Notes: generated by a model from the sequence alone, not told the origin. Shown: positions 34,374-51,061, counted from the stretch's first letter. The stretch is 64,000 bases of DNA from Candidatus Taylorbacteria bacterium RIFCSPHIGHO2_01_FULL_51_15 (GCA_001820935.1 MHRI01000030.1:2734-66733), one strand, 5' to 3'. Made by a program: numbers and translations.

Positions 34374-36020
34374 TTGAACCAGAAGCGTTTTTTGATTTTT
34401 ACATTCGGGCGGGCTATAGTTATCCACGCTTCCATGGAACAAGAGAGCCCTCAAGCCGTACCTACCTTTGCGCGAAAGTTCGACAAACTGGCCTTATTTC
34501 ATCCAGTGTTCTTGGCCGTGTATCTTATGCTGTTTCTCTTTTCATACAACAAGGAGCAGTTGCAGTTTGGAAACATTATCCTACCTCTCCTTCTCACCCT
34601 ACTCTTTGTAGGTGGGGTATATCTTGTCACCTTCGCTTTTATCAAGCATAAGCAGACATCGGCGCTTATCGCATCTCTTAGTCTCATTTTCTTTTTCGCC
34701 TATGGCACGGCGTACGCCCCGATCGAGTACCTTAAAATCGGAGATGTCATCGTCGGACGGTTTCGGTACTTCTTTCCCGCGTGGTCGCTCCTCTTCCTTC
34801 TTATCGCGTACGGGATTGTGAGGATGCGCAGCTATACCAAGATCGCAACAAAGTTCATCGCCGTCGTTGGACTGACCCTCTTACTTTTCCCCGTGATTGA
34901 TATTGCCGCCTTCACTTTGCGAAACAACGATGAGGTCTCTCACACTTTCACAGGCCTCAAATCGGGCGAGGAAACTATCGCAGAAAGTCCTGACATTTAT
35001 TACCTCATTCTTGATCAGTACGCTCATGCAGAAACGCTTAAAGCGGCAGGCTTCGACAATACGTCTTTCATAAACGCACTTGAAGACAGAGGCTTTATGG
35101 TCAGGAAGAGAAGTGCGACCAATTATCCACTCACCAGCACTTCGCTCACCTCGTCACTCAACATGAGATACATAGAGGGGGAAAGGGAACTCGAAGACGC
35201 GGGAAGACAAGCATTTCGTGCCATACGCGATAACGCCGCTCAACGGTTCCTAAAGAACCGTGGGTATACCACCATTCACTTCGATACAGGAGTAAGCATT
35301 ACCGAGTATAATGAGTTTGCGGACGTCAACATCTCCTGCGGACGAGTGAGCGAACTTTGGGCGCTCATTATACGGATGACGCCGCTCAAGATCCTGGATC
35401 GCCGCTATCGGATTGTTGACGGTGATCATCGAGGAAGAATCCTCTGTCAGTTTGAGCGACTTGCCGAGGTTCCTTTCATGGAAGGAGAGATTCCCAAATT
35501 TGTTTTTGCGCATATCGTTTCTCCGCATGCACCCTTTGTGTTCGGCCCAAACGGCGAAAATGTAGATACATCTTTTCTCGGTGTTGACGTTGAACAACCA
35601 GGCGGAGAGAAGCTGTATCTTGAACAACTTCAGTATCTTAATACACTTGTTCTCGACACGGTGACCAAGATACAGGAACGCTCGAAGCGTCCGCCCGTTA
35701 TCATTATCCATTCAGACCACGGGTCAAGCTCGCGCCCGAGGGAGGTGTGGGATAATCCAACAGACGAGTTTTTGAACGAGAGAATGCGAAACTTCATGGC
35801 GCTCTACGCTCCCACCGTAGATCGAGAGATTTTCGCGAAAAAGGTAACGACTCCAGTGAACATCTTCCGCTTCATCTTCAATGAGTATTTCGACGCCAAC
35901 TTTCCGTTACTTGAGGAACGTAGCTACTTCGCGTCGATCAAGAAACCTTTCATTTTTACCGATGTCACCGATCGTTTAGAGTTCGCCTCCCCTGACGTGT
36001 TTCCGCCTTCGAAGCGGTAG
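34374..36020 (+). CDS. Membrane-anchored sulfatase/alkaline-phosphatase-superfamily protein (LTA-synthase or phosphoglycerol/phospho-substituent transferase-like)
   Basis: 5 N-terminal TM helices, then 'YYLILDQYAH' and 'HIVSPHAPFVFGP' sulfatase-fold motifs. Confidence 0.55.
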   Translation: MNQKRFLIFTFGRAIVIHASMEQESPQAVPTFARKFDKLALFHPVFLAVYLMLFLFSYNKEQLQFGNIILPLLLTLLFVGGVYLVTFAFIKHKQTSALIASLSLIFFFAYGTAYAPIEYLKIGDVIVGRFRYFFPAWSLLFLLIAYGIVRMRSYTKIATKFIAVVGLTLLLFPVIDIAAFTLRNNDEVSHTFTGLKSGEETIAESPDIYYLILDQYAHAETLKAAGFDNTSFINALEDRGFMVRKRSATNYPLTSTSLTSSLNMRYIEGERELEDAGRQAFRAIRDNAAQRFLKNRGYTTIHFDTGVSITEYNEFADVNISCGRVSELWALIIRMTPLKILDRRYRIVDGDHRGRILCQFERLAEVPFMEGEIPKFVFAHIVSPHAPFVFGPNGENVDTSFLGVDVEQPGGEKLYLEQLQYLNTLVLDTVTKIQERSKRPPVIIIHSDHGSSSRPREVWDNPTDEFLNERMRNFMALYAPTVDREIFAKKVTTPVNIFRFIFNEYFDANFPLLEERSYFASIKKPFIFTDVTDRLEFASPDVFPPSKR

Positions 36021-36026
36021 GGACTT

Positions 36027-36353
36027 TTGAGTTTTCGAGTGCGACATTATCAATTAATCAGCATATATATGAGACACACCACACATCGGCGGCAGCATAT
36101 TCTCGGCATGGTCGGCTTACTCGCCGTGCTTTCACTTATTGTACCGCGATCGGCGAGCGCCTATCTTGATCCCGGAACGGGGAGCTTCATCATTCAGGTC
36201 CTTCTTGCCGCAGTTGCGGGTGTGGGCTACTTGGTTAAGGTGTTTTGGAATGGTATCAAGAACTTTTTCTCCTCGCTTTTCTCGAGTAAGCGAAAGACGC
36301 CGCCTGAGGGTATGAGCACTAACCATGACCAAGATCAAAAAGGAACTTCGTGA
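36027..36353 (+). CDS. Hypothetical small membrane protein
   Basis: 108 aa. Signal-like segment then TM 'FIIQVLLAAVAGVGYLV'. Confidence 0.3.
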   Translation: MSFRVRHYQLISIYMRHTTHRRQHILGMVGLLAVLSLIVPRSASAYLDPGTGSFIIQVLLAAVAGVGYLVKVFWNGIKNFFSSLFSSKRKTPPEGMSTNHDQDQKGTS

Positions 36354-37458
36354 TTGTTTTCGATTCTTTTTCCGGACGACTGCAGAAGAAAAACGAATCG
36401 TCTTTTACTCCGAATACCGAAGCTATTATTCGTATTTTGAAGGTGCAATACGGGAGCTCTTAGAGACGCATAAAGCTCCTCTCTGCTATGTCACTTCTGA
36501 CTTTTCGGATCCGATCTTGCAAAGCCCTCTCCCCATTCGGACATTCTACGTACATCGGTTGCTCCCTCTGTTCATGTTATTTCTTGACGCGCGTGTGTGC
36601 GTTATGACGCTCACCGATCTCAATAAATTTCACCTCCGCCGCTCGATGCGGAACGTACACTACGTCTACATCTTCCATTCACTCATCAGCACGCACATGC
36701 AGTATCGGGAAGGAGCCTTCGACCATTACGATACGATTCTCTGTGCCGGCCCGCACCATATGAGGGAAATCCGCCAACGGGAGGAGATGATAAATTTGCC
36801 GAAGAAGAATCTTGTACCGGCCGGCTACTACCGCGTGGAGCGCGTAAAAGAGGCCTTCCTATCGGCGCCTTTAAAACTCTCATCAGAACCGAAAGTCGTT
36901 CTGGTAGCGCCTTCGTGGGGGAAGCAGAACATTCTTGAAGTCTGCGGAGCTTCGCTCGTGCGGCTACTAATTGCTGCGGGACATCATGTCACCGTGCGTC
37001 CTCACCCCGAAACGATGCGACGCTCTCCGGAACTTATCGCCAATCTTGAAGACGAATTCGGTAGGATGAAAGGATTCATACTCGAAAAATCAGTGGCGGG
37101 CTTTTCTTCACTCGTTGCGGCAGATGTTCTTATCACCGACTGGTCGGGAGTGGCGTTCGAATACGCCTTCGGGACCGAACGTCCGGTCCTGTTCCTGGAT
37201 GTTCCAAAAAAGGTTAATAACCCCTCATTCGAGACGTTGCACCTCCAGCCTCTAGAGGTGGTGGCGCGCGAGAAGATCGGCATTGTCATCTCTCCTACGC
37301 GCCTCGAAGAAGTAATCCCGGCTATCACCAAGCTCGTGGAGAAGCGAGAAGAGTACCACACATGCATCAGGACTTTGCGCAGTGAGACGGTGTATGAGCT
37401 CGGCTCATCGTCTAGGGCAATGGGAGAAAGTATTATGAGTCTTGCCCGCTCTCTATGA
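36325..37458 (+). CDS. CDP-glycerol glycerophosphotransferase family protein (TagB/TagF-like)
   Basis: 'VVLVAPSWGKQN' and 'RPHPE' segments. 'LITDWSGVAFEYAFGTERPVLFLD' matches the TagB/F C-terminal catalytic region. Confidence 0.65.
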   Translation: MTKIKKELRDCFRFFFRTTAEEKRIVFYSEYRSYYSYFEGAIRELLETHKAPLCYVTSDFSDPILQSPLPIRTFYVHRLLPLFMLFLDARVCVMTLTDLNKFHLRRSMRNVHYVYIFHSLISTHMQYREGAFDHYDTILCAGPHHMREIRQREEMINLPKKNLVPAGYYRVERVKEAFLSAPLKLSSEPKVVLVAPSWGKQNILEVCGASLVRLLIAAGHHVTVRPHPETMRRSPELIANLEDEFGRMKGFILEKSVAGFSSLVAADVLITDWSGVAFEYAFGTERPVLFLDVPKKVNNPSFETLHLQPLEVVAREKIGIVISPTRLEEVIPAITKLVEKREEYHTCIRTLRSETVYELGSSSRAMGESIMSLARSL

Positions 37459-37907
37459 TTGCACCCACCCCTTCCTCGGCACTCGTCACCAAAGTTCTGC
37501 GTGAACTTCCTCCTTTCGAGACGGAGCAGGAGGGACAGATCTACACAGCCCTCATCGCAGAGAGACTTCTTCGTGCCTGGCCGCAGAACCTTTCCAAAGA
37601 TGACCTCGAATTTCTGAATATACTTTGCCGCAAGATCGAGGTCACGAAGAAACTTCTCTTGTCGTATGAGCTTCAGTGGAAACAGCCGAAGATACCGGTA
37701 GCACTGCCTCCTTCTTTTTTCCCTTTGATACTCTCTGTGCTCCTATTTCTTCCTGCTTTTCCCGGAGGAGACAAAGGACAGGCATTAAAACAGCTTAGCG
37801 CCGCATTCACGCTTATTGACCGCGCGGGAGATGGGGGAGGTGTGAGTGTACTAGACGAACTTCGCCGCTACGCGGAGGAGAGATTAACTCTGCTCACGAA
37901 AGACTGA
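37455..37907 (+). CDS. Hypothetical protein
   Basis: 150-aa ORF translationally coupled to flanking genes. Confidence 0.35.
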   Translation: MIAPTPSSALVTKVLRELPPFETEQEGQIYTALIAERLLRAWPQNLSKDDLEFLNILCRKIEVTKKLLLSYELQWKQPKIPVALPPSFFPLILSVLLFLPAFPGGDKGQALKQLSAAFTLIDRAGDGGGVSVLDELRRYAEERLTLLTKD

Positions 37908-37908
37908 T

Positions 37909-38796
37909 ATGCACACCCTACCCCTCACCGTGCTTGTTCATGAAGGACCCAATGCTCGCGCGTATCTCATGCGACTAAGGCGCCTTGGCCTGCGACCCTC
38001 TGCTATCGTGCTCTTGGTATCAAGGGAGTACCCCGGCACCAAGAAAGAAATTCCCGGTTGGCTTCCGTCGTCTCTCAAAATGAGTTACGCACAGCGCGTA
38101 CAGGAATCGGCAGAGCATTATTGGCCGCGGCATATCAGGAAAGCCTTTCCCGCACTTTTCGAAGCGATGCGCATTCCGCTTGAAGCGGCGTATGGAGAAA
38201 TCGATTGGGACGAAATGCTTCCCTCACAACCTTACGAATCGTATGCCGACAGCGTCGAGAGAGTCTTCATTCGAGATTTTCGCGACCCCGCCTTGTACCA
38301 GGCACTCCTACGCCTCAAGTATAAAACACTCCTCTTTACCGGTGGGGGGCTTGTTCCCGCCGCACTCCTTTCCATACCCGGTATCCGTTTTCTTCACGTA
38401 CATCCAGGCACACTCCCATTCGTGAGGGGCGCTGATGGTCTTCTTTGGTCCATACTTACCCGCGGTTTCCCCGGGGCAAGTTGCTTTTATATGCAGCCTG
38501 GACTTGATATGGGCGATGTTATCGAAACGAAAGATCTTCCGAATATCGTTTTTCCTCTTCGGGGGATAAAGCGCCCTCCTGATCCAACCCTCTACAGGGC
38601 CCTCTTTTCCTACTACGATCCGCTGTTGCGCGCGGACTTCTTAGCGGCTATACTGGCGAAGTCTAAGGACATGGATCTAGCCAATCTGTCAAGTTCGGTA
38701 CAAGAGTTGTCGGTGGGCATCACGTATCATTTTATGCACGAAAAGCTTCGACATCGCGCGCTCCAAAAATTATTTCCTTCATACACCTCGGTTTAA
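37909..38796 (+). CDS. Formyltransferase-like protein (Formyl_trans_N fold)
   Basis: 'FLHVHPGTLPFVRGADGLLWSIL' resembles the formyltransferase 'HPSLLPRYRG...W.I' core. Confidence 0.4.
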   Translation: MHTLPLTVLVHEGPNARAYLMRLRRLGLRPSAIVLLVSREYPGTKKEIPGWLPSSLKMSYAQRVQESAEHYWPRHIRKAFPALFEAMRIPLEAAYGEIDWDEMLPSQPYESYADSVERVFIRDFRDPALYQALLRLKYKTLLFTGGGLVPAALLSIPGIRFLHVHPGTLPFVRGADGLLWSILTRGFPGASCFYMQPGLDMGDVIETKDLPNIVFPLRGIKRPPDPTLYRALFSYYDPLLRADFLAAILAKSKDMDLANLSSSVQELSVGITYHFMHEKLRHRALQKLFPSYTSV

Positions 38797-38813
38797 TTTT
38801 ATCCAAAACCTTC

Positions 38814-39605
38814 ATGATGCATGACTATCGCCCATATTATAATACCTATTCCATGTGTGCGCCGATGGTGTTCGCGAAGGATGCTCTTTTCTCACGCGGT
38901 TCGACAAAACGGATTTCACTCATCAACCGTCTTCGTGATTATGTCGGGCTTCGAGATGCTCCCACTTTATTCTCCCTTCATCGAAAGATGAGTGAGCGTT
39001 TGTTCTTTGACCGCACTTGGCAAAGTCATGACTATGGAGAGGGTTATTTCTATCAGAGCTTTGATCGGATCGGCGTAAGGGGCCTCCGAGATACGAAGGC
39101 TCGCGTCGAAGCCATGGGTCTTCGGGATCTTCTGCGCGGAAAACATGTTATCGATATCGGTTCCAACGCGGGGTTTCTCTCACTTTCTCTCGCGGATGTT
39201 GCAAAAGAAGTTGTCGGCTTGGAGAATAACCCTGACCTTGTCGCTGTGGGTAATCTCGCTCGTGACTATTTGAGAGTACATAATGTCACTTTCGTCACTT
39301 CTTCTTTCGAGGACTTCACTACTTCGAAGGTTGCCGACGTCATACTTTCCTTCGCGAACCATTCCACGTATGATGGAAATACAAAGCAATCGGTCGAGGA
39401 ATATTTCGAGAAATGTAAGCGCCTCCTTCATCCCGGAGGTCTCCTCATTTTCGAATCCCACCACCCGACCTACGAATCTCCTGAAGCGCTTCAGCATGTC
39501 GTTTTGGTGATTGAGCGCCTCTTTCATATTCGCGAACGAAAGGTGCTTATGGCAGGGACATTTTTCGATCGGGGACGAACGTATATCGTGGCAGAACGTA
39601 GCTAA
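38814..39605 (+). CDS. SAM-dependent methyltransferase-like protein
   Basis: 'HVIDIGSNAGFLSLSLA' motif I. 'LLHPGGLLIFESH' segment. Confidence 0.5.
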   Translation: MMHDYRPYYNTYSMCAPMVFAKDALFSRGSTKRISLINRLRDYVGLRDAPTLFSLHRKMSERLFFDRTWQSHDYGEGYFYQSFDRIGVRGLRDTKARVEAMGLRDLLRGKHVIDIGSNAGFLSLSLADVAKEVVGLENNPDLVAVGNLARDYLRVHNVTFVTSSFEDFTTSKVADVILSFANHSTYDGNTKQSVEEYFEKCKRLLHPGGLLIFESHHPTYESPEALQHVVLVIERLFHIRERKVLMAGTFFDRGRTYIVAERS

Positions 39606-39659
39606 CTAAGAAGGGCGCATTTCAGTTTTATGTGGTAACCTCACTTTCGCTCCACTTTC

Positions 39660-42566
39660 ATGGTCTCAGAAAAGAAAATTAGGAAAGTAGTCTATACTCC
39701 AGTTGTCGGGGATCTTTTCAATTTCGGACATCTCCAGTTCTTGCGTTACGTACGCCTTCTCGGGGATCACCTCATCTGCGGCGTGATGACCGACGACGCG
39801 GTGGCGTCCTTTAGGCAGAGGCCTATTGCGAACCTCGATGAACGAAAAGCTATATTTGAAAATCTCGCCTTTGTTGACCAGGTAATGGTTCAAGATAGCA
39901 AGGACCCGGAAGGGAACCTACGGAGTATCCGGGGAAAATGGAAGGATGCCGAGATCACACTCGTCTATGGTAGCAACTGGAAAACACTCCCGAGAGGAGA
40001 GTTCCTAAAATCGATCAAGGCACGGGTCGTGCACCATCCGCATTTTTATAACAAGTTCGCAGACTCCGAAATCGTCCGGCACCTTCTTACGAGCTACCGG
40101 CAAGAGTTTCAAAACCCGAGCGAATTTTTCCAGTATTTCAAACTTCACGACTTCATGCCGGACACGCAAAGCAAGGCCGAGCAATTTTCGCTCGGCACAA
40201 AAGGAGATACACTCCAAGCAATTCGCCCGCTTCTCACAAAATCGGTCATTGAGGACCTGCTCATCTTTACGGAGGAGGAGTGGAAGAGACATTCTTCCGT
40301 GATTGGCAAGAACATTCGGGACACGTTTTCTCCCGACACCATCGTTGTGCGAAGTTCCGCGCAGCGTGAAGACACCTCCACCTCATCTATGGCAGGGGTT
40401 TTCCAGAGCGTCCTTGGCGTCGATTCCAAGAGTCAGTCTGATGTGGCCGCGGCTGTGATGAGCGTCATCCGTTCATATCATGCGGAAAGAGAGACAATCT
40501 CCAATAATCAAATACTTGTGCAGAGGCAGACGAAGGACATCAAGATAAGTGGAGTCATCTTCACGCGGGTCATGGAAACTAACGCACCCTACTACGTCAT
40601 CGACTATGACGACACGACCGGGATGAGCGATCGCGTGACCAAAGGACAGGGACACGCCTCCATGAAGATGTATCGCTTCACCGATCCAAAATTGTATCCA
40701 AAGGAGTTTCGACCGCTGCTCGCGGCAGTGAAAGAGATAGAAGAACTGATTCCAAAGATAAGCTTGGATATCGAATTCGCCATAACCAAGAAAGGAAAGG
40801 TAGTTATCTTTCAAGTGCGTCCGCTTTCGGTGAACGCGGGCCATAACTACCTCGACAATATCCGAACTAAGAAGATAATCGAACGATTTAAGGAGGAATT
40901 TGCTTCGCTCCAAAGGGCGAAAAGTCATCTTGCAGGCAACACAACCTATCTCGCTGATATGCCCGACTGGAATCCAGCCGAGATTATCGGGGATCGCCCA
41001 AATCATCTCGATCAATCTTTGTACGCGTACATTATCACGAATCATGCGTGGCACAGGGCACGGACCTCCCAAGGATACGCTAACGTGGATCCGGCACAGC
41101 TTGTGGTGATGTTTGGCGGTAAGCCATACGTAGATGTGCGAAGCTCTTTCAATTCGTTCGTTCCGGCCGATCTTCCCCAAAAGCTTAGGGAAAAGCTCGT
41201 TCTGTTTTACCTTCACAAGTTGAAGACCCACCCTGAACTTCAGGACAAAGTCGAATTCGATATTGTCTTTACCTGTTTTGATCTCACTTTTTCCCAGCGT
41301 TCAAAAGAGCTTCGGAAACACGGATTCAGTGAGAAAGAAATACAGACCTTCAAGATCTCTCTCCTTTCCCTGACAAACAAACTTTTGGAGAACTACACCG
41401 AGGAAGTGAAAAAAGATCTTGCGGCGGCGGTGGCCCTCCGTCCCAAGCGATCCGTAATCGGGCAACTCGCCAAGGAGAAGGCGCACGATCCCCGAGAGCT
41501 CCTCTCTTTGGCGAGAGAACTTCTCGATCATGCCGTGAGCTCCGGTACGATCCAATTTTCTCGCCTCGCGCGCCTCGCTTTTATCGGCAAAATCCTGCTT
41601 CGGAGTTTGGTGTCACGAAAAATCATTGATACTGCAATCTATCATGAGTTTCTTTCGTCCATCTCGACCGTCGCGACGAAAATGGATGAGGATTTCCTTG
41701 CGTACACGCGAGGAGAGCTCCACCCCCGCGAATTTCTCGCGCGATACGGGCATCTCCGTCCCGGGACGTACGATATCACGAGTCTTCGCTACGATGCCGA
41801 CCCGGCACTTCTTGTCGCTACGGCACCTCCATCAACGGGGCACCCGAAAAAAGAATCCTTTGTGCTTCCCGGAAAAACGGCTCAAAAGATCACCGCCGTG
41901 TTTAGAAAAGAAGGATTAGCATTTGATGCGTCGTATTTTTTTGAATTTCTCAAAACCGCGATAGAAGCTCGCGAATTTTCTAAGTTTGAATTTACCAAAA
42001 ACCTGAGCGATGCAATCGAATGTATCGCAAAAGCCGGAGCACTCCTCGGATTCTCAAGGGAAGAGATGTCTTCCCTTGATACGGAGAACCTCTTTGACCT
42101 ACTTGAAGTGGAGGATGTAAGGGACATGCAAAGAGCGTGGAAAGATCTCATCCGTTACCGCATGGAGGAAAAGGAAGAGCACAAAAAGGTGCTTCTCCCG
42201 CCAATTATATATTCTCCGCAAGATCTTGAGATCATTGCTCCGTACGTCGCAAAGCCTAACTTTATTACCGAGAAGAAGGTAGAGGGGAAAATCGTGAATC
42301 TACGTATGACAAATAAGAGCACACTCGCTATCAAGGGAAATATTGTGCTGCTCGAGAACGGGGATCCGGGATACGATTGGATTTTTACAAGAAAGCCTCT
42401 CGGTCTTATCACGAAGTATGGCGGTGTGGCTTCTCATATGGCGATACGATGCGCCGAATTCGGCCTTCCTGCCGCTATCGGCTGCGGAGAAGTTATCTTT
42501 TCGGAGTTAGCACAAGCGAAAGGCGCCCTGCTTGATTGTGGGAAGAAGAAAATCATAGTACGTTAG
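39660..42566 (+). CDS. Fusion protein: N-terminal TagD-like cytidylyltransferase domain (~140 aa) joined to a PEP-utilising-enzyme/pyruvate-phosphate-dikinase-family phosphotransferase (ATP-grasp region plus phosphohistidine swivel domain). Candidate L-glutamine-kinase (Cj1418)-like enzyme.
   Basis: N-terminal 'VVYTPVVGDLFNFGHLQFL' HxGH cytidylyltransferase motif aligns with B. subtilis TagD. C-terminal 'VLLENGDPGYDWIFTRKPLGLITKYGGVASHMAIRCAEFGLPAAIGCGE' is the PEP-utilising mobile domain with the catalytic-His context. Central 'QREDTSTSSMAGVFQSV' resembles the PPDK N-terminal nucleotide-binding region. Confidence 0.7.
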   Translation: MVSEKKIRKVVYTPVVGDLFNFGHLQFLRYVRLLGDHLICGVMTDDAVASFRQRPIANLDERKAIFENLAFVDQVMVQDSKDPEGNLRSIRGKWKDAEITLVYGSNWKTLPRGEFLKSIKARVVHHPHFYNKFADSEIVRHLLTSYRQEFQNPSEFFQYFKLHDFMPDTQSKAEQFSLGTKGDTLQAIRPLLTKSVIEDLLIFTEEEWKRHSSVIGKNIRDTFSPDTIVVRSSAQREDTSTSSMAGVFQSVLGVDSKSQSDVAAAVMSVIRSYHAERETISNNQILVQRQTKDIKISGVIFTRVMETNAPYYVIDYDDTTGMSDRVTKGQGHASMKMYRFTDPKLYPKEFRPLLAAVKEIEELIPKISLDIEFAITKKGKVVIFQVRPLSVNAGHNYLDNIRTKKIIERFKEEFASLQRAKSHLAGNTTYLADMPDWNPAEIIGDRPNHLDQSLYAYIITNHAWHRARTSQGYANVDPAQLVVMFGGKPYVDVRSSFNSFVPADLPQKLREKLVLFYLHKLKTHPELQDKVEFDIVFTCFDLTFSQRSKELRKHGFSEKEIQTFKISLLSLTNKLLENYTEEVKKDLAAAVALRPKRSVIGQLAKEKAHDPRELLSLARELLDHAVSSGTIQFSRLARLAFIGKILLRSLVSRKIIDTAIYHEFLSSISTVATKMDEDFLAYTRGELHPREFLARYGHLRPGTYDITSLRYDADPALLVATAPPSTGHPKKESFVLPGKTAQKITAVFRKEGLAFDASYFFEFLKTAIEAREFSKFEFTKNLSDAIECIAKAGALLGFSREEMSSLDTENLFDLLEVEDVRDMQRAWKDLIRYRMEEKEEHKKVLLPPIIYSPQDLEIIAPYVAKPNFITEKKVEGKIVNLRMTNKSTLAIKGNIVLLENGDPGYDWIFTRKPLGLITKYGGVASHMAIRCAEFGLPAAIGCGEVIFSELAQAKGALLDCGKKKIIVR

Positions 42567-42570
42567 AGAC

Positions 42571-43260
42571 ATGCAGATTCTCATTTCACAACGCGTGGTA
42601 AGGCGGGAAGGACGAGGAGATATGGACGCGCTCGAGACGAACTATGTGGAGTTCTTCCGAGGATTTGGGGTGAAGGTTTTGCCGGTCTCAAATACACTCC
42701 GCGACATTGAAGGCTACGTGTCGGGGTTGTCCGTAGACGGGGTGATTCTTTCTGGCGGCAACGACGTGAATCCAAGGTTATATGGAGAAACAGCTACTCC
42801 CGACAGCGATTATTCCGAGGCTAGGGATACTACGGAGCGTTTACTTCTTGAGTTTGCCATAAAAGGAAAATTACCGGTACTCGGTATCTGCAGGGGCACG
42901 CAGTTTATCAACGTCTTTTTCGGAGGGAAGCTCGTGCAGGATATCTCCAACGCAACCGGGGGAGATCATCTTCATCCGCATGAGGCAGAGATATCCGACG
43001 CAGAGGCGCGCGCGTACCTCGGCAAAAGCAGTATGCAGGTCAATTCGTATCACCGGCAGGGCATCACGCCCGGGGAGCTTTCGCTGAACCTTCGCCCGTT
43101 TGCCATCGGGAAGGACGGAAGCATCGAGGGGATATATCACGCTACTCGCCCGATCGCGGGCCTCATGTGGCATCCGGAACGGCAGGGCTCTGACAAGGAA
43201 ACGGATGCGAAGCTCATTGCCGCCTTTGCAAAAGGAGAATTATTTTGGAAAAAGGCATGA
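42571..43260 (+). CDS. Class I glutamine amidotransferase-like / peptidase C26 hydrolase. Candidate gamma-glutamyl-CDP-amidate hydrolase (Cj1417)-like enzyme.
   Basis: 'LPVLGICRGTQFINVFFGG' nucleophile-elbow Cys motif. 'GLMWHPE' His motif. Confidence 0.7.
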   Translation: MQILISQRVVRREGRGDMDALETNYVEFFRGFGVKVLPVSNTLRDIEGYVSGLSVDGVILSGGNDVNPRLYGETATPDSDYSEARDTTERLLLEFAIKGKLPVLGICRGTQFINVFFGGKLVQDISNATGGDHLHPHEAEISDAEARAYLGKSSMQVNSYHRQGITPGELSLNLRPFAIGKDGSIEGIYHATRPIAGLMWHPERQGSDKETDAKLIAAFAKGELFWKKA

Positions 43261-44003
43261 AAGCAATCATTTTAGCGGCAGGCCGCGGTACGAGGCTTAG
43301 CAAATACACCAAAGACCTGCCAAAGTGCATGCTTGAGTTTGGAGGAAAGACGCTTATTCTGCGCCAGGTGGAAACGCTTCGAAAGGCCGGTATTTCCGAC
43401 ATCACTTTGATTAAGGGGTATCTTGCCGAGAAGATACAAATTCCGGGCGTGAAGTACTTGGTGAACGAACGCTATGCCGAGACGAACATGGTCGGCACGC
43501 TTATGTGCGCTAAAGAGGAGCTGGGGGGAGATACTCTTATTTGTTACGGGGACATCATCTACGAAGAAAAAGTACTCCGCGCGGTGCTTGCGGACAAAAG
43601 CGACATCGGGGTCGTTGTGGATGAAGATTGGCGGCCGTATTGGGAGGCGCGTCACGGAGATTCGTTGATCGATACCGAGAGTCTTGTCGTAGGGAAAGGG
43701 GGGAATATCATTGAGCTCGGAAAAGCCGATCCGCCTCCGGAAAAAGCGAAGTTGCGTTATGTCGGTCTCATCAAGCTTTCGAGAAAGGGAGTGGAACAGT
43801 TGAAGCGGGTCTATGAGGGGAATCCCGTGCTCTTCGATACATCCTACATGACCGATCTCTTGCGGGCGATAATTGACGCAGGATTTCGCGTAGATCCTAT
43901 TGTGGTGCGGCACGGCTGGCTTGAGTTCGACACGAGCGAGGATTATGAAAAGATGACCGTGCTTCTTGAAAGTAACAAGCTCGCCCCGCTTTTTAGGATA
44001 TAA
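43245..44003 (+). CDS. LicC-like NTP-transferase (sugar/phospho-substituent cytidylyltransferase). Candidate Cj1416-like enzyme.
   Basis: 'MKAIILAAGRGTRLSKYTKDLPKCMLEFGGKTLI...ITLIKGYLAEKI' matches the LicC/MobA-like nucleotidyltransferase signature. Confidence 0.7.
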   Translation: MEKGMKAIILAAGRGTRLSKYTKDLPKCMLEFGGKTLILRQVETLRKAGISDITLIKGYLAEKIQIPGVKYLVNERYAETNMVGTLMCAKEELGGDTLICYGDIIYEEKVLRAVLADKSDIGVVVDEDWRPYWEARHGDSLIDTESLVVGKGGNIIELGKADPPPEKAKLRYVGLIKLSRKGVEQLKRVYEGNPVLFDTSYMTDLLRAIIDAGFRVDPIVVRHGWLEFDTSEDYEKMTVLLESNKLAPLFRI

Positions 44004-45058: not shown

Positions 45059-46249
45059 ATGCGGATCTTTTACATAACTACAAAACTGAACTTCAATCAG
45101 GGCGGGTCGAATATTGAGAACGATCTTATCATGCGGACGCTCCAAGGAATGGGGAATGAAGTGACTATGGTAACTGTCTTTTCGCGCTTTAATCATATCC
45201 CCGAACCTCTGCCGTACGGCCATATCAAAGAGGAGCTTACTACTGCGAGGCAGCTCGGCATTCAGTGGGGTGTTTTCCGTCTGCTCCGAAAGTACGCAAA
45301 GTCTGCCGATTTCTTCTTTGTTGATGGGCAGACATTTCTCTATGGCGCGGGACTGTATCGAACGCTTGGAGGCAAGGTTCCGGTGTTCGCCTATTTCGTG
45401 CGCGAGCTCATGGCATGGCCGGAAAATGTTTCAACACTTATTACCAGTAGGCAAGCGAGCATTCCTCTTTGGTATCGTACCAAACGGAAAACGCGCTTCC
45501 TCATCGAGCGATATCTTTGCATACCATTTGCAAACTGGATCGACTTTTTTGCCTTCGGCTCGCCACAACTTCAAAAAGAGTATGAAGATTTCGGTCTGCG
45601 CGCCGAGAACAAAAGTATCATTATCGGGGACCCCTATCCTTGGAGAGAGGTGATGCAAAAGAGCGGCATTACCGAAGATTCATACGCCTTGCGTAACAAG
45701 AAGAGTGGCAAGGTGCGACTCTTCTATTCCAACCGCATGGCACCGGGGAAAGGATTCGACCTTTTGGTGCGTGCGTTTTCTCTTGTTCCAAACAAAGAAC
45801 GCTTCACCCTCGTTCTTGGCGGGGCTGGGCCAGAGGAGCCGCTCATTCGGCAGATGGTCAGCGACCTCAATCTGGAGACCCATGTTGAGTTTTCCGGCTG
45901 GATACCCAAAGAGGACTATTATGTCGCTCTCAAGCAGGCAGATATCTTCATTCATCCAAGATGGCGCGAGGCCCAACCCTCCATTGGACTTATGGAGGCG
46001 ATGGTGTTTGGCCTCCCCTGCATCGTCCCGAAGGGGACCGGACTTCACTGGGTGGCGGGAAAAGGCGCCCTGCCGTTCCGATTCGACGATGCGGAGGATC
46101 TTGCGACCATGATTGAGAAATTAGGAGGTGACAGTACGCTTCGAGCAAAGCTGTCAGAGAACTGTTACCTTCGACTCAAGGAGGGGGATGTCAACTACGA
46201 GAAAACAATCCCCGCAGTCCTCGAAATTATGAAGCGTCTACGAGGGTAG
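45059..46249 (+). CDS. Glycosyltransferase family 4
   Basis: C-terminal 'HPRWREAQPSIGLMEAMVFGLPCIVPKGTGLHWV' GT4 motif. Confidence 0.7.
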   Translation: MRIFYITTKLNFNQGGSNIENDLIMRTLQGMGNEVTMVTVFSRFNHIPEPLPYGHIKEELTTARQLGIQWGVFRLLRKYAKSADFFFVDGQTFLYGAGLYRTLGGKVPVFAYFVRELMAWPENVSTLITSRQASIPLWYRTKRKTRFLIERYLCIPFANWIDFFAFGSPQLQKEYEDFGLRAENKSIIIGDPYPWREVMQKSGITEDSYALRNKKSGKVRLFYSNRMAPGKGFDLLVRAFSLVPNKERFTLVLGGAGPEEPLIRQMVSDLNLETHVEFSGWIPKEDYYVALKQADIFIHPRWREAQPSIGLMEAMVFGLPCIVPKGTGLHWVAGKGALPFRFDDAEDLATMIEKLGGDSTLRAKLSENCYLRLKEGDVNYEKTIPAVLEIMKRLRG

Positions 46250-47077
46250 ATCTTGTTTCATACAAAAGAGGTTTACAAAATCTGTTTCCCGCAAAAGCTC
46301 CGCGGGAAGATTCTTTGAGTTCGGGTCTACGGGAAGTAATGTATCTTTTTGGATCGCGAATATCTTAAATCCAAGCGAGGAGAGCTCACGGAAGAGTGCA
46401 TCCTGTGAAAATCCCGCCTGTGTTTGGCAGGACGGATTCCACTCTACAACGAGGCAAATGGAAGGCGCACTAAGCGTCTTACGCGCTCCGCGAATCGCCC
46501 CCATCTCTCCGCCTTCAATATCCATTTTTATAAGATCAACGCGCGTCTCACCTTTTTCCACGAGAAAAGCGTCAAGTTCCACCGATTCTACAGAAATAAC
46601 CTCTCTTTGTCGTGCCTCGTCCGGCACGAGACTGTGACACCCAGTCTTTTCGCTTCGATAGAAATTCATTGGTTTTTTGGCGTCGGAAACTGCCACTTTG
46701 CATGTAGTCACGTTTTTGAGGCGCCTCGTATTTTTCTCAAGTAACCCGAAGTTTTCAGGATCTGGCTCGAATGCATATATTTTCCCTCTGTTGCCCACGA
46801 GCTTCGAAAACAGGCGTGTAAAGTATCCAATATGCGCGCCCACGTCCACCACGACCATGCCCGGCTTAATTATTCTCTTGAAGAGATCATATGTTTCTTT
46901 TTCATAGATGCCCCAGAGCATATTAAGCTTCCACCGCCGTATGTAGTTATCCGGAAAAGAAAAGCCGTAGAACTTCGCGAGGAGAGCGGTAAGCGAATCA
47001 AGGATGGTATAAATAGCCCGATCAAGAGCCGGAGAGTGAATGTGAGTTCGATAGAATTTTCGTAATGTTCCGATCAT
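46238..47077 (-). CDS. FkbM-family SAM-dependent methyltransferase
   Basis: 'VVDVGAHIGYFTRLF' and 'IYAFEPDPENF' segments. 'VDLIKMDIEGGEMGAIRGA' is the FkbM signature. Confidence 0.75.
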   Translation of the reverse strand: MIGTLRKFYRTHIHSPALDRAIYTILDSLTALLAKFYGFSFPDNYIRRWKLNMLWGIYEKETYDLFKRIIKPGMVVVDVGAHIGYFTRLFSKLVGNRGKIYAFEPDPENFGLLEKNTRRLKNVTTCKVAVSDAKKPMNFYRSEKTGCHSLVPDEARQREVISVESVELDAFLVEKGETRVDLIKMDIEGGEMGAIRGARKTLSAPSICLVVEWNPSCQTQAGFSQDALFRELSSLGFKIFAIQKDTLLPVDPNSKNLPAELLRETDFVNLFCMKQDLPS

Positions 47078-49502: not shown

Positions 49503-50288
49503 TTGGTTATTCATTTTATGAAGAACATCCGCATTATCCCAACCCTCCATATCAAAGGATCGAACGTGGTAAAGCCGGTACACACCGAAGCCCTTCGTGT
49601 TGTGGGCCATCCAAAGGAGCTTGCCCTCCGTTACTACCGCGAGGGAGCTGATGAACTTATCTATCTCGATATTGTCGCGAGCCTGTACCAGCGCAATTTT
49701 GATTTTGAGTTACTCAAATCCGTTTCCGAAGAAATCTTCATCCCGATTACGGTTGGAGGAGGCATCCGCTCGCTCTCCGATATCAAAAATGCTCTGCGTG
49801 TCGGAGCCGACAAAGTCGCCATCAATACGTATGCCGTGCATCACCCCGAGTTCTTGAAAGCCGCCGCAGAAGAGTTCGGCTCGCAGTGTATCGTGCTCTA
49901 CATTGAGGCCAAGGAAAAAGGGGACGGGAGGTGGGAGGTCTATACAGATGGCGGGCGGGAGAGCACCGGTGTTGATGCCGTGGAATGGGCGAAAAGGACA
50001 ATAGACCTTGGTGTAGGCGAAATCCTCCTCACTTCCATTGATCGCGATGGAACACGGAAGGGATATGACCTCGAGCTTACCTCTGCCATCGCTTCAACGT
50101 CTCCCATTCCCGTCATAGCCCATGGAGGCGCGGGGAATGCCGCTCACCTGGAAGAGATTATCAAGAAGGGAAAGGCGGACGCCGTGGGAGTGTCATCCAT
50201 TTTTCACTACGCGGAGACGGATATTGGAGCCGTGAAGAAAAATTTGAGTGGACGGGAAATCAATGTGAGAGCAAATTATTCTAATTAG
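49503..50288 (+). CDS. hisF: Imidazole-glycerol-phosphate synthase cyclase subunit HisF homolog (glycan-locus paralog, WbuZ-like)
   Basis: '[15 protein letters not shown]' and 'DELIYLDI' segments. '[10 protein letters not shown]' and '[11 protein letters not shown]' are HisF signatures. Confidence 0.8.
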
Positions 50289-50400: not shown

Positions 50401-50410
50401 TTTCATTCTT

Positions 50411-51058: not shown

Positions 51059-51061
51059 CTT

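What the first reader, a model, noticed from the sequence alone, without database searches (positions are those of the whole stretch)
38814..44003. Candidate phosphoramidate (MeOPN-like) biosynthesis module: glutamine-kinase-like dikinase, C26 hydrolase and LicC-like cytidylyltransferase
Three consecutive, translationally coupled genes match the established core of Campylobacter jejuni O-methyl-phosphoramidate synthesis (Taylor and Raushel work on Cj1415-Cj1418). In that pathway a PEP-utilising-family L-glutamine kinase (Cj1418) makes phospho-glutamine. A nucleotidyltransferase (Cj1416) makes CDP-glutamyl-amidate. A class-I glutamine-amidotransferase-like hydrolase (Cj1417) releases CDP-phosphoramidate.

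Here ORF 39660..42566 has the PEP-utilising architecture, including the swivel domain 'GGVASHMAIRCAEFGLPAAIGCGE'. ORF 42571..43260 is a C26/GATase-1-like protein ('LGICRGTQFINVFFGG'). ORF 43245..44003 is a LicC-like nucleotidyltransferase. Upstream SAM methyltransferases (38814..39605 and others) could supply the O-methylation step. The sulfatase-superfamily membrane protein (34374..36020) and the TagB/F-like gene (36325..37458) could be the transferases.

MeOPN is known essentially only from Campylobacter capsules. Finding the same gene logic in an apparently unrelated small-genome bacterium would be new. The CysC-like kinase (Cj1415) is not in this window, so the pathway may differ, or may end at a CDP-linked phospho-substituent.
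Basis: partly seen in the sequence, partly recalled or inferred. Interest (0 to 1): 0.9.

Follow-up and report, generated by a model that had tools for sequence, protein, structure and literature searches.

The report
Phosphoramidate-donor gene cassette, CPR bacterium
A groundwater ultra-small bacterium (Candidatus Taylorbacteria) carries the three-enzyme cassette that Campylobacter uses to make the activated phosphorus-nitrogen donor for its capsule. The cassette is real, but it is not a rarity: it is one copy of a module found in hundreds of bacterial and archaeal species, here in a little-described variant with an extra fused cytidylyltransferase domain and no Cj1415-type kinase.

Summary
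ORFs 39660-42566, 42571-43260 and 43257-44003 are tightly coupled genes (4-nt gap, then an ATGA overlap).

They encode:
- a Cj1418-type dikinase-like protein: NCBIfam NF004508 scores 853.7 bits against a cut-off of 501, and the swivel His926 is present;
- a Cys-His-Glu C26 hydrolase whose best curated family is gamma-glutamyl-CDP-amidate hydrolase, though below that family's cut-off;
- a LicC-like cytidylyltransferase.

The window comes from Candidatus Taylorbacteria RIFCSPHIGHO2_01_FULL_51_15, where the public records name these proteins only generically or wrongly.

The triad is strongly syntenic. At least 522 species-level genomes encode the kinase. In the 85 loci examined, the C26 gene lies within 1 kb in 78 of 82 and the cytidylyltransferase within 3 kb in 74 of 79. 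Fusion proteins (kinase-C26, NTase-kinase, APS-kinase-CTP-transferase-kinase) tie the steps together.

No Cj1415-like kinase lies in or near the window. Long-form loci, mostly those with this fusion, usually lack that kinase. Some loci of either form instead carry TagF-like or CDP-alcohol-phosphotransferase genes.

Most likely the cassette makes cytidine diphosphoramidate for a glycan decoration. The methylation and transfer steps are inferred. I rate it a new variant of a known kind, of moderate interest.

The parts
34374..36020 (+). Membrane protein of 548 aa. It has 5 N-terminal hydrophobic segments followed by a sulfatase/alkaline-phosphatase-superfamily domain (LtaS/EptA-like layout). Candidate extracytoplasmic phospho-group transferase.
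   Evidence: Pfam Sulfatase is weak here. The orthologue in L001 scores 295 bits and has a firm Sulfatase hit. Hydropathy. Sulfatase-family genes co-occur with TagF-like genes in 9 of 12 loci.
36105..36353 (+). Small two-segment membrane protein with the motif AYLDPGTGSFIIQ, immediately upstream of the TagF-like gene.
   Evidence: 37% identical to the 79-aa ORF in the same position in L001. Hydropathy.
36325..37458 (+). TagB/TagF-family (CDP-glycerol glycerophosphotransferase-like) protein. Candidate CDP-dependent transferase of the phosphoramidate group.
   Evidence: Pfam Glyphos_transf 41.3 bits against cut-off 22.1. The orthologue in L001 scores 421 bits. The family is found in 12 related loci. 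Vibrio alfacsensis pYa108 has a PF04464 protein directly after the triad.
37455..37907 (+). 150-aa protein of unknown function with one hydrophobic segment; partner of the formyltransferase-like gene.
   Evidence: No Pfam hit. Orthologue in L001. Weak match to the 'unk19' family (14.9 bits), which co-occurs with the Fmt-like family in 21 of 27 loci (p = 1.4e-12).
37909..38796 (+). Formyltransferase-fold protein of 295 aa belonging to a divergent subfamily: H-x-H in place of N-x-H, with an invariant His165 and Asp200. Role unexplained.
   Evidence: Pfam Formyl_trans_N is weak. Best PDB match is PseJ, E = 8e-5. The family is in 27 of 85 loci, within 3 kb of the kinase in 23. Residue conservation.
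38814..39605 (+). Class I SAM-dependent methyltransferase of 263 aa. Candidate O-methylase of the phosphoramidate.
   Evidence: Pfam Methyltransf_31 and relatives. The orthologue in L001 scores 333 bits in the same position. The family is in 10 loci.
39660..40154 (+). N-terminal cytidylyltransferase-like domain (TagD/ECT/Fom1-CyTase fold, about residues 1-165) of the 968-aa fusion protein. Its motif is NFGH where relatives have HxGH.
   Evidence: Pfam CTP_transf_like 29.5 bits. PDB matches 5x3d, 3elb and 1coz with alignments. Foldseek TM-score 0.81-0.84 normalised to the target. The motif census found HxGH in 49 of the 51 CTP_transf_like-type long-form kinases in which the search pattern matched.
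40167..42566 (+). Cj1418-type (L-glutamine-kinase-like) dikinase, about residues 170-968: an ATP-grasp domain, a helical acceptor domain and a swivel domain whose phosphocarrier is His926 (codon 42435-42437).
   Evidence: NF004508 853.7 bits against cut-off 501. Pfam PPDK_N and PEP-utilizers. AF2 model pLDDT 86.9. Best fold match is rifampin phosphotransferase at 15% identity. 81 positions are at least 97% conserved over 80 family members.
42571..43260 (+). Class-I glutamine-amidotransferase/C26 hydrolase, the counterpart of gamma-glutamyl-CDP-amidate hydrolase (Cj1417). Catalytic Cys107, His201 and Glu203.
   Evidence: Pfam Peptidase_C26 131 bits. NF045546 is the best family at 99.6 bits but below its cut-off of 250. 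The triad is invariant in 75 relatives, and all 75 match NF045546.
43257..44003 (+). LicC-like cytidylyltransferase of 248 aa (signature AAGRGTRL), the counterpart of phosphoglutamine cytidylyltransferase (Cj1416).
   Evidence: Pfam NTP_transf_3. Best PDB match is LicC 1jyk, E = 4.6e-18. ATGA overlap with the C26 gene. JGI names relatives of 52-56% identity 'L-glutamine-phosphate cytidylyltransferase'. The gene is within 3 kb of the kinase in 74 of 79 loci.

Best explanation
This is a cytidine-diphosphoramidate (activated P-N donor) cassette embedded in a large surface-glycan island of a CPR bacterium.

Steps supported by homology and gene linkage:
1. [quoted passage not shown]
2. A cytidylyltransferase condenses phosphoglutamine with CTP to give CDP-L-glutamine. 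I assign this step to the universally linked stand-alone LicC-like enzyme (43257-44003).
3. The Cys-His-Glu C26 hydrolase removes glutamate and leaves cytidine diphosphoramidate.

Inferred steps:
4. No Cj1415-type kinase is present. I propose the CDP-amidate is used directly, without 3'-phosphorylation, by the adjacent TagF-like CDP-dependent phosphotransferase (36325-37458). That enzyme would place the phosphoramidate on a hydroxyl of a glycan or lipid-linked intermediate and release CMP.
5. The LtaS/EptA-like membrane protein (34374-36020) would act at the outer face.
6. The methyltransferase 38814-39605 may O-methylate the group.

Unresolved: the fused N-terminal TagD-like domain is a second cytidylyltransferase. 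It may channel the labile phosphoglutamine or activate a second substrate. The role of the conserved formyltransferase-like/150-aa pair is also unexplained.
For: Identity of the three proteins:
- Kinase: NF004508 853.7 bits against cut-off 501 over residues 170-966. The next-best kinase-region models, PEP synthase and rifampin phosphotransferase, reach only 32-46 bits against cut-offs of 850-999.
- There is no PEP/pyruvate-binding domain. The fold resembles rifampin phosphotransferase: ATP-grasp, helical acceptor domain and swivel His.
- C26 protein: best curated family is gamma-glutamyl-CDP-amidate hydrolase, E = 2.3e-28 against 1.6e-12 for the next family. All 75 relatives match it, and Cys107/His201/Glu203 are invariant.
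- Cytidylyltransferase: LicC-like.
- JGI names relatives 'glutamine kinase' and 'L-glutamine-phosphate cytidylyltransferase'.

Linkage:
- Coupled genes: 4-nt gap and ATGA overlap.
- The triad is conserved in 4 of 4 metagenome contigs. In the 85 loci it is conserved in 78 of 82 (C26) and 74 of 79 (NTase), on the same strand.
- Fusion proteins: kinase-C26 (L085); LicC-like-kinase (L076, L080, L082, L086); APS-kinase-CTP_transf-kinase (P0083/L003).
- 81 residues are at least 97% conserved between the loci with and without APS kinase, including charged residues of the acceptor domain.

Transfer step:
- An APS-kinase-like gene was found in 6 of 54 long-form loci against 12 of 26 unfused loci (p = 0.001).
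- TagF-like and CDP-alcohol-phosphotransferase-like genes never co-occur across the 12 and 19 loci that carry them, but the test is not significant (p = 0.06). Each has its own partner gene.
- Cultured examples: Vibrio alfacsensis pYa108 has the triad plus a TagF-like gene without an APS-kinase gene annotated within 8 kb. Agrobacterium vitis has the triad plus a CDP-alcohol phosphatidyltransferase. Azospirillum lipoferum has an APS-kinase domain, the triad and two sulfotransferase-domain proteins.
- The whole 8-gene block is conserved in L001, in a different order.
Against: - I could not obtain the C. jejuni Cj1415-Cj1418 sequences, so there is no direct alignment or tree with the characterised enzymes. 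NF004508 is itself labelled 'hypothetical protein', and its link to Cj1418 rests on my memory plus JGI's names.
- The C26 protein is below the NF045546 equivalog cut-off (99.6 against 250). No relative tested reached an E-value better than 8.7e-50, which I read as below the cut-off; the per-member bit scores were not shown.
- Two cytidylyltransferases are present, and which one acts on phosphoglutamine is undecided.
- The fused domain here has NFGH instead of HxGH, with unknown consequence.
- Use of CDP-amidate by a TagF-like enzyme has no precedent known to me.
- The sulfatase-like domain is predicted to lie outside the membrane, where it cannot use a cytoplasmic nucleotide donor directly.
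- A Cj1415-like gene could lie elsewhere in the MAG.
- The depletion of APS kinase in long-form loci may partly reflect phylogeny.
- No chemistry exists for any non-Campylobacter carrier.
Confidence: 0.65

Rival explanations
1. The chemistry up to cytidine diphosphoramidate is the same, but the end product is not an O-methyl phosphoramidate on a polysaccharide. It could be an unmethylated phosphoramidate, a phosphoramidate on a lipid or on an S-layer or pilus glycoprotein, or a small molecule. The neighbouring methyltransferase, TagF-like and sulfatase-like genes would then serve other decorations of the glycan island.
For: The triad sits in very different contexts. In Agrobacterium vitis it lies beside LysE exporters, a TauD dioxygenase and an aaRS-related gene, which looks like a small-molecule cluster. 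Only 10-12 of 85 loci have the window's methyltransferase or TagF-like families. The window contains many other methyltransferases and transferases. In C. jejuni the phosphoramidate occurs with and without the methyl group (PMC9561416).
Against: The 8-gene block, including the methyltransferase, TagF-like and sulfatase-like genes, is conserved as a unit but reordered in L001. That argues for one function. The surrounding genes are glycan-biosynthesis genes.
Confidence: 0.2
2. The cluster is mainly a teichoic-acid-like phospho-alcohol system. The N-terminal TagD-like domain would make CDP-glycerol or another CDP-alcohol for the TagF-like enzyme. The kinase would phosphorylate some acceptor other than glutamine, so no P-N bond is made.
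For: The N-terminal domain aligns with glycerol-3-phosphate, ethanolamine-phosphate and hydroxyethylphosphonate cytidylyltransferases. A TagF-family gene is adjacent. Substrate specificity of the kinase has not been tested.
Against: The C26 gamma-glutamyl-type hydrolase is next to the kinase in 78 of 82 loci and is even fused to it in L085. This is hard to explain without a glutamine-derived intermediate. The TagF-like gene is present in only 12 loci, whereas the TagD-like fusion is in 52. The window's own TagD-like domain has an atypical NFGH motif. Acceptor-domain residues are conserved with the APS-kinase-linked loci.
Confidence: 0.08
3. The large protein is what the databases call it, a PEP synthase or pyruvate phosphate dikinase, or else a rifampin-type antibiotic phosphotransferase. 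Under this reading the neighbouring genes are coincidental.
For: UniRef labels it 'Phosphoenolpyruvate synthase'. RefSeq labels relatives 'PEP-utilizing enzyme' or 'pyruvate phosphate dikinase'. The closest solved fold is rifampin phosphotransferase.
Against: There is no PEP-utilizers_C/TIM-barrel domain. PEP-synthase, PPDK and RPH models score 16-46 bits against cut-offs of 456-1700. Identity to RPH is only 15%. The gene linkage is near-universal.
Confidence: 0.02

Closest known systems
Campylobacter jejuni O-methyl phosphoramidate (MeOPN) pathway, Cj1415-Cj1422 (Taylor, Raushel and co-workers 2017-2019; McNally et al. 2007)
   Same: The same three-enzyme core: a PEP-utilising-type kinase with a swivel His, a class-I amidotransferase-like hydrolase with a Cys-His-Glu triad, and a LicC-like cytidylyltransferase. 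The genes are adjacent, sit in a surface-polysaccharide locus, and have SAM methyltransferases nearby.
   Different: The kinase carries an extra N-terminal TagD-like cytidylyltransferase domain. No Cj1415 (APS-kinase-like) gene is in or near the window. The candidate transferases are TagF-like and LtaS/EptA-like. I could not test for Cj1421/Cj1422 homologues. A formyltransferase-like gene and a small partner belong to the block. The C26 protein is below the Cj1417 equivalog cut-off. The host is a CPR bacterium and the nearest relatives are DPANN archaea.
MeOPN-like four-gene cluster of the Cobalt Borg (bioRxiv 10.1101/2024.11.05.622173)
   Same: A computational assignment of Cj1418/1417/1416-like proteins outside Campylobacter, in a glycoconjugate region, with two cytidylyltransferase-type proteins.
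   Different: In the Borg the extra cytidylyltransferase is fused to a PEP mutase (phosphonate link), not to the kinase. It is an archaeal extrachromosomal element. That assignment was structure-based only.
Wall teichoic acid logic: TagD (CTP:glycerol-3-phosphate cytidylyltransferase) plus TagB/TagF (CDP-glycerol glycerophosphotransferases)
   Same: A TagD-fold domain and a TagB/F-family gene lie in one block. The proposed transfer, in which the acceptor hydroxyl attacks the beta-phosphorus of a CDP-linked donor and CMP leaves, is the TagF reaction type.
   Different: The donor proposed here is CDP-NH2, not CDP-glycerol. The TagD-like domain is fused to a kinase and has NFGH in place of HxGH. 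No polymerisation is implied.
Sulfate activation (APS kinase, PAPS, sulfotransferases)
   Same: In part of the family (Azospirillum plasmid, several unfused loci, C. jejuni Cj1415) an APS-kinase-like enzyme accompanies the triad. Sulfotransferase-domain proteins also accompany it in Azospirillum, which fits a PAPS-like 3'-phospho-CDP-amidate donor.
   Different: The window has neither an APS-kinase-like gene nor a sulfotransferase-like gene found with these tools.
Rifampin phosphotransferase (RPH) and PEP synthase/PPDK
   Same: An ATP-grasp domain plus a swivel phosphohistidine domain. The overall three-domain layout matches RPH.
   Different: 15% identity to RPH. There is no PEP/pyruvate TIM-barrel domain. 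All curated models score far below their cut-offs.
Phosphonate cytidylyltransferases (Fom1 CyTase domain; PntC)
   Same: The N-terminal domain's closest solved relatives include the Fom1 CyTase domain 5x3d. The LicC-like protein's second-best PDB match is the PntC fusion 6pd1. Both act on small phospho or phosphono substrates.
   Different: No PEP mutase was found among the window genes scanned. The association here is with a kinase and a glutamine-type hydrolase.

Membership tests
L-glutamine kinase family (Cj1418, EC 2.7.3.13) | ATP-grasp (PPDK_N) nucleotide-binding domain | tested here: met
   Pfam PF01326, 46 bits against cut-off 27. ATP-grasp fold matches in Foldseek.
L-glutamine kinase family (Cj1418, EC 2.7.3.13) | C-terminal swivel domain with the phosphocarrier histidine | tested here: met
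   PF00391, 39.3 bits. His926 in GGVASHM is invariant in 49 homologues and at least 97% conserved in 80 family members.
L-glutamine kinase family (Cj1418, EC 2.7.3.13) | No PEP/pyruvate-binding TIM-barrel domain; a helical acceptor domain instead | tested here: met
   No PF02896 hit. Residues about 500-850 are all-helical in the model. Best fold match is rifampin phosphotransferase.
L-glutamine kinase family (Cj1418, EC 2.7.3.13) | Passes the curated family model | tested here: met
   NCBIfam NF004508 (PRK05849) 853.7 bits against cut-off 501, covering 786 of 789 model positions. The model is labelled 'hypothetical protein'. That Cj1418 belongs to it is my recollection, supported by JGI naming full-length homologues of 42-49% identity 'glutamine kinase'.
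L-glutamine kinase family (Cj1418, EC 2.7.3.13) | Direct sequence or phylogenetic grouping with C. jejuni Cj1418 | not tested
   The Cj1418 sequence could not be obtained. The Taylor/Raushel and McNally papers are not held. The afdb50 library was unavailable. No Campylobacter protein appeared among the top-120 lists.
L-glutamine kinase family (Cj1418, EC 2.7.3.13) | ATP + L-Gln gives AMP + Pi + N5-phospho-L-glutamine | not testable with these tools
   Needs an enzyme assay.
gamma-Glutamyl-CDP-amidate hydrolase (Cj1417) | Class-I glutamine-amidotransferase/C26 fold with a Cys-His-Glu triad | tested here: met
   PF07722, 131 bits. Cys107, His201 and Glu203 are invariant in 75 relatives.
gamma-Glutamyl-CDP-amidate hydrolase (Cj1417) | Reaches the NCBIfam equivalog cut-off (NF045546, 250 bits) | tested here: not met
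   99.6 bits. It is nonetheless the best family by 16 orders of magnitude in E-value. All 75 kinase-linked relatives match it; the best E-value among them is 8.7e-50.
gamma-Glutamyl-CDP-amidate hydrolase (Cj1417) | Encoded next to the kinase and the cytidylyltransferase | tested here: met
   Within 1 kb of the kinase in 78 of 82 loci and on the same strand in 81 of 82. A kinase-C26 fusion exists in L085.
CTP:phosphoglutamine cytidylyltransferase (Cj1416) | LicC/NTP_transf_3-type nucleotidyltransferase with a G-x-G-T-R-L signature | tested here: met
   PF12804, 59.9 bits. LicC 1jyk E = 4.6e-18. The sequence 'LAAGRGTRL' is present.
CTP:phosphoglutamine cytidylyltransferase (Cj1416) | Specific assignment to the phosphoglutamine enzyme rather than other LicC-like enzymes | tested here: inconclusive
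   No dedicated NCBIfam model appeared. JGI names two relatives of 52-56% identity 'L-glutamine-phosphate cytidylyltransferase', but others 'choline kinase' or 'phosphoenolpyruvate phosphomutase'. NCBI uses 'phosphocholine cytidylyltransferase family'. Linkage to the kinase is strong.
Cytidine diphosphoramidate kinase (Cj1415, APS-kinase-like) | A PF01583-type kinase gene in the cluster | tested here: not met
   tblastn with the APS-kinase domain of P0083 finds nothing credible in the window. None was called in the flanks. The rest of the MAG was not searched.
MeOPN transferases and methyltransferases (Cj1421/Cj1422, Cj1419/Cj1420) | Homologues of the Campylobacter transferases and methyltransferases | not tested
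Generic class-I SAM methyltransferases are present.
TagD-type cytidylyltransferases (N-terminal domain) | HxGH nucleotide-binding/catalytic motif | tested here: not met
   The window has NFGH where ECT, Fom1 and TagD have HxGH. Of the 51 CTP_transf_like-type long-form kinases in which the search pattern matched, 49 have HxGH. The Pfam family cut-off is met (29.5 against 21).
PEP synthase / pyruvate phosphate dikinase | PEP/pyruvate-binding C-terminal domain and passing the family models | tested here: not met
   No such domain. Models score 19-46 bits against cut-offs of 456-1063.
Rifampin phosphotransferase | Passing the RPH models | tested here: not met
   NF041857 31.7 bits against 999; NF000283 15.8 against 1700. 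15-16% identity in the structural alignment.
TagB/TagF glycerophosphotransferases (36325-37458) | Pfam PF04464 membership | tested here: met
   41.3 bits against cut-off 22.1. Catalytic residues were not examined, because no PDB sequence match was found.

The most novel reading that the evidence does not exclude
The window represents a widespread, undescribed second route of biological phosphoramidate transfer. A kinase fused to a second cytidylyltransferase makes cytidine diphosphoramidate. That donor is used directly, without the PAPS-like 3'-phosphorylation step of Campylobacter, by CDP-dependent phosphotransferases of the TagF or CDP-alcohol-phosphatidyltransferase families. A formyltransferase-fold enzyme and its small partner would add a further, unknown modification. 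If so, P-N-bonded surface decorations would be common on DPANN archaea and present in some CPR bacteria, gut anaerobes and marine and soil bacteria, rather than a Campylobacter peculiarity.
Probability: 0.3. Interest if true: 0.75.

Novelty: new variant of a known kind. Interest (0 to 1): 0.55.

Why it matters
Natural P-N bonds are rare. [quoted passage not shown] The data here show that the kinase/hydrolase/cytidylyltransferase cassette is a mobile, modular unit. It occurs in at least 522 species-level genomes from many phyla of both prokaryotic domains. Carriers include cultured organisms such as Parabacteroides goldsteinii, Vibrio alfacsensis, Azospirillum lipoferum, Agrobacterium vitis, Leptospira ilyithenensis and Cohnella species, in which the chemistry can be tested directly.

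The cassette appears to be plugged into at least three kinds of downstream transferase. For CPR and DPANN organisms, which depend on cell-cell contact, an unusual zwitterionic or neutral phosphorus decoration of the surface could matter for host attachment or phage evasion.

The finding also exposes systematic mis-annotation of these genes as 'PEP synthase', 'pyruvate phosphate dikinase', 'choline kinase' and 'gamma-glutamyl-GABA hydrolase family'.

Tried and rejected
- Obtaining the Cj1415-Cj1418 sequences failed. The Taylor/Raushel and McNally papers are not held. The afdb50 fold library was not installed. The genome scan kept only the 80 best loci, none from Campylobacterota. A second homologue search seeded with a Desulfovibrio kinase also listed no Campylobacter protein.
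- PDB sequence searches found no solved member of the kinase or hydrolase family and nothing for the TagF-like protein.
- tRNA and Rfam scans of the window were empty, so the organism was identified by exact protein look-up instead.
- Promoter and terminator scans gave no more sites than shuffled sequence and did not define operon limits.
- The 79-aa ORFs next to the module in L005 and L006 are unrelated to the window's small membrane protein. Only L001's is related.
- Conserved antisense ORFs inside the kinase and cytidylyltransferase genes (clusters 3, 9, 13, 15 and 21) are shadow frames, not genes.
- I considered that the TagD-like fusion replaces Cj1415 functionally. I rejected this as a strict rule, because a triple APS-kinase-TagD-like-kinase fusion exists (P0083/L003) and several long-form loci carry an APS-kinase-like gene (6 of 54).
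- NJ trees of the kinase and the cytidylyltransferase are not fully congruent. They lack support values, so I drew no conclusion about functional divergence from them.
- The Capsule_synth-like gene 47074-48591 was considered as a Cj1421/22-like transferase. A second such gene downstream lies beside a CMP-sugar synthetase and NeuB, so a nonulosonate/Kdo-type transferase role is as likely.

Full report
**1. The observation**

The large gene ends at TAG 42564-42566 and the next gene starts at ATG 42571. The third gene most likely starts at ATG 43257, overlapping the stop TGA 43258-43260 of the second as ATGA. This gives the 248-aa product that NCBI calls, rather than the TTG at 43245.

Pfam assigns the following:
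- Second protein: Peptidase_C26 (7.1e-38).
- Third protein: NTP_transf_3 (4.5e-16).
- 38814-39605: class-I methyltransferase families.
- 36325-37458: Glyphos_transf (41.3 bits, cut-off 22.1).
- 34374-36020: only a weak Sulfatase hit.

**2. The organism**

Exact-sequence look-up identifies the window as Candidatus Taylorbacteria bacterium RIFCSPHIGHO2_01_FULL_51_15, a CPR/Patescibacteria genome assembled from a metagenome. The three proteins are OHA20372-OHA20374. They are labelled 'hypothetical protein', 'Phosphoenolpyruvate synthase' (UniRef) or 'MobA-like NTP transferase domain-containing protein'.

The window as a whole is a surface-glycan island. It holds GT4 and GT2 glycosyltransferases, dTDP- and GDP-sugar enzymes, a sugar aminotransferase and C-methyltransferase, a nonulosonic-acid set and an ABC exporter.

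**3. What the three proteins are**

The kinase:
- In NCBIfam, residues 170-966 match NF004508 (PRK05849) at 853.7 bits against a cut-off of 501.
- Every PEP-synthase, PPDK and rifampin-phosphotransferase model scores 16-46 bits against cut-offs of 456-1700.
- There is no PEP/pyruvate-binding domain.
- An AlphaFold2 model (pLDDT 86.9) resembles rifampin phosphotransferase in layout at 15% identity: an ATP-grasp domain, a helical acceptor domain and a swivel His domain.
- The N-terminal 130 residues superpose on the Fom1 cytidylyltransferase domain and on TagD.
- That NF004508 is the Cj1418 family is my recollection. It is supported by JGI naming full-length homologues of 42-49% identity 'glutamine kinase'.

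The C26 protein:
- Its best curated family is NF045546, gamma-glutamyl-CDP-amidate hydrolase, which is the Cj1417 function. E = 2.3e-28 against 1.6e-12 for the next family, but 99.6 bits is below the 250-bit equivalog cut-off.
- All 75 kinase-linked relatives match the same model; the best E-value among them is 8.7e-50.
- Cys107, His201 and Glu203 are invariant.

The third protein:
- It is closest to LicC (1jyk, 4.6e-18).
- Relatives of 52-56% identity are named 'L-glutamine-phosphate cytidylyltransferase' by JGI. Other relatives carry inconsistent names.

I could not obtain the Campylobacter sequences themselves, so a direct alignment is missing.

**4. Linkage**

The fusion-C26-cytidylyltransferase order recurs in four independent metagenome contigs. 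They include:
- DPANN archaea and Nitrosopumilus;
- Omnitrophota and Planctomycetota;
- Leptospira ilyithenensis and Cohnella species;
- Parabacteroides goldsteinii and Halanaerobium polyolivorans;
- Lachnospiraceae, Desulfovibrio and others.

In the 85 loci I examined, the C26 gene lies within 1 kb of the kinase in 78 of 82 loci (same strand in 81 of 82). The cytidylyltransferase lies within 3 kb in 74 of 79.

Several fusion proteins tie the activities together:
- kinase-C26 in L085;
- a LicC-like domain fused to the kinase in L076, L080, L082 and L086, each with a further stand-alone cytidylyltransferase;
- APS-kinase-CTP_transf_like-kinase in P0083/L003.

Eighty-one kinase residues are at least 97% conserved across family members with and without the fusion or an APS kinase. 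They include His926 and charged residues of the helical acceptor domain: D529, K530, E532, R638, H698, R700, R771, E772 and K775. This argues for a common substrate.

**5. How this copy differs from Campylobacter**

(a) The extra domain. The kinase carries an N-terminal TagD/ECT/Fom1-like cytidylyltransferase domain, so the cluster has two cytidylyltransferases. This long form is the commonest architecture, in 52 of 85 loci. The catalytic-site motif is HxGH in 49 of the 51 long-form kinases in which the search pattern matched. In the window and one other locus it is NFGH. The consequence is unknown.

(b) No Cj1415-type kinase. No APS-kinase-like gene is in the window, in the 2.6 kb to the contig end upstream, or in 10 kb downstream. 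Across loci, an APS-kinase-like gene accompanies 6 of 54 long-form kinases against 12 of 26 unfused ones (Fisher p = 0.001).

(c) Recurrent accessory genes:
- A formyltransferase-fold protein (window 37909-38796) and a small partner (37455-37907) co-occur in 21 of 27 loci (p = 1.4e-12). They lie within 3 kb of the kinase in 23 of 27.
- That family has an invariant His165 and Asp200, but His where canonical enzymes have Asn.
- TagF-like genes co-occur with sulfatase-family genes (9 of 12 loci, p = 8e-4).
- CDP-alcohol-phosphatidyltransferase-like genes co-occur with an unknown 430-aa family (10 of 19).
- The TagF-like and CDP-alcohol types were never found together across the 12 and 19 loci that carry them, but the test is not significant (p = 0.06).

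(d) A conserved block. The window's eight genes from 34374 to 44003 are all conserved in the 55%-identity locus L001, with the transferase sub-block moved from upstream to downstream.

**6. Annotated examples in cultured bacteria show the same modularity**

| Replicon | Genes with the triad |
|---|---|
| Azospirillum lipoferum 4B plasmid AZO_p6 | A protein with an APS-kinase domain, a methyltransferase, and two sulfotransferase-domain proteins (a PAPS-like route) |
| Vibrio alfacsensis pYa108 | A long kinase with a LicC-like N-terminal domain and, directly after the triad, a CDP-glycerol glycerophosphotransferase-family gene; no APS-kinase gene annotated within 8 kb (the sulfate adenylyltransferase genes cysN/cysD lie just upstream) |
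| Agrobacterium vitis plasmid | A CDP-alcohol phosphatidyltransferase |

**7. Mechanism**

I conclude with fair confidence that the three genes make cytidine diphosphoramidate, as established for Cj1418, Cj1416 and Cj1417. That pathway is summarised in PMC6429109 and in the Borg preprint.

The further steps are inference:
- direct use of CDP-amidate by the TagF-like enzyme, with CMP as the leaving group;
- a role for the LtaS/EptA-like membrane protein, which has five N-terminal hydrophobic segments, at the outer face;
- O-methylation by the 263-aa methyltransferase.

Which cytidylyltransferase acts on phosphoglutamine is open. So are the role of the second one and the role of the formyltransferase-like pair.

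**8. Novelty**

MeOPN chemistry is documented only in Campylobacter (PMC3907429). [quoted passage not shown] The only paper I found that links glutamine kinase to archaea is a 2024 preprint. It assigns a Cj1416-1418-like cluster to a Borg element from structure predictions. No paper in the library links methyl phosphoramidate to CPR or DPANN organisms.

The window is one member of a very widespread cassette, in an architectural variant that has not, to my knowledge, been described or tested. The nearest relatives of the window's kinase, apart from L001, are DPANN archaeal proteins at about 50% identity. This suggests exchange between CPR bacteria and DPANN archaea, which is an inference.

Noticed in passing
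window 39660-40154: The N-terminal TagD/Fom1-like cytidylyltransferase domain fused to the kinase has NFGH where 49 of the 51 related long-form kinases with a matched motif, and all solved relatives, have HxGH. Only one other locus (L044, Desulfuromonadales) shares this change.
   Followed up: partly
window 37455-38796; also L007, L008, L010, L028, L050, L070 and others: A divergent formyltransferase-fold protein (H-x-H...D instead of N-x-H...D) and a small partner protein form a tightly co-occurring pair next to the cassette in about a third of loci from many phyla. No known step of the MeOPN pathway needs a formyltransferase.
   Followed up: partly
L085; L076, L080, L082, L086; L003/L004 (P0083); L090: Alternative fusion architectures of the kinase: kinase-C26; a LicC-like domain fused to the kinase (always with a second stand-alone LicC-like gene); and APS-kinase-CTP_transf_like-kinase. 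Two cytidylyltransferases per locus is a recurrent, unexplained theme.
   Followed up: partly
L089 (Azospirillum lipoferum 4B plasmid AZO_p6, NC_016588.1 27861-40465): The cassette is flanked by an 846-aa protein whose last 190 residues are an APS-kinase domain. Its first 650 residues match no Pfam family and nothing in the other loci examined. Two sulfotransferase-domain proteins are also present. These are candidates for a PAPS-like phosphoramidate transfer system in a cultured bacterium.
   Followed up: partly
L092 (Agrobacterium vitis plasmid pRvVAT039a 352963-360278): The triad sits with LysE exporters, a CDP-alcohol phosphatidyltransferase, a TauD dioxygenase, an asparaginase and an aaRS-related protein. 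This context looks like small-molecule biosynthesis rather than polysaccharide biosynthesis.
   Followed up: no
phage record MT837632.1 (9.5 kb, human faecal sample): An unannotated 'Bacteriophage sp.' contig encodes a 37.5%-identical full-length homologue of the kinase (E = 2e-151). I did not check whether the contig is truly viral.
   Followed up: no
window 12153-13010: An amino-acid-kinase-family (PF00696) gene sits between glycosyltransferase genes of the glycan island. That is an unusual place for this family.
   Followed up: no
window 46238-48591 (minus strand); L088 12567-13994: A Capsule_synth (PF05159)-like 505-aa gene is paired with an FkbM methyltransferase and converges on the module. 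A second Capsule_synth gene, with a CMP-sugar synthetase and a second NeuB, lies just beyond the window's end. Homologues of both occur in a few related loci (L007, L038, L072; L023, L039, L077).
   Followed up: partly
window 49503-59233: A nonulosonic-acid (legionaminic/pseudaminic-type) biosynthesis set: a HisF/HisH-like pair, an aminotransferase, a CMP-sugar synthetase, a short-chain dehydrogenase, NeuB and a UDP-GlcNAc 2-epimerase. An ABC exporter follows at 61037-62815.
   Followed up: no
window 6874-10659: A type-IV-secretion coupling-protein-like ATPase (TraG/VirD4/HerA-type hits) is followed by a PKD plus lamin-tail-domain protein, next to the glycan island.
   Followed up: no
database records of relatives: Systematic mis-annotation. 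The kinase family is labelled 'Phosphoenolpyruvate synthase', 'pyruvate phosphate dikinase' or 'PEP-utilizing enzyme'. The hydrolase is labelled 'gamma-glutamyl-gamma-aminobutyrate hydrolase family'. The cytidylyltransferase is labelled 'choline kinase', 'phosphoenolpyruvate phosphomutase' or 'phosphocholine cytidylyltransferase family'.
   Followed up: yes
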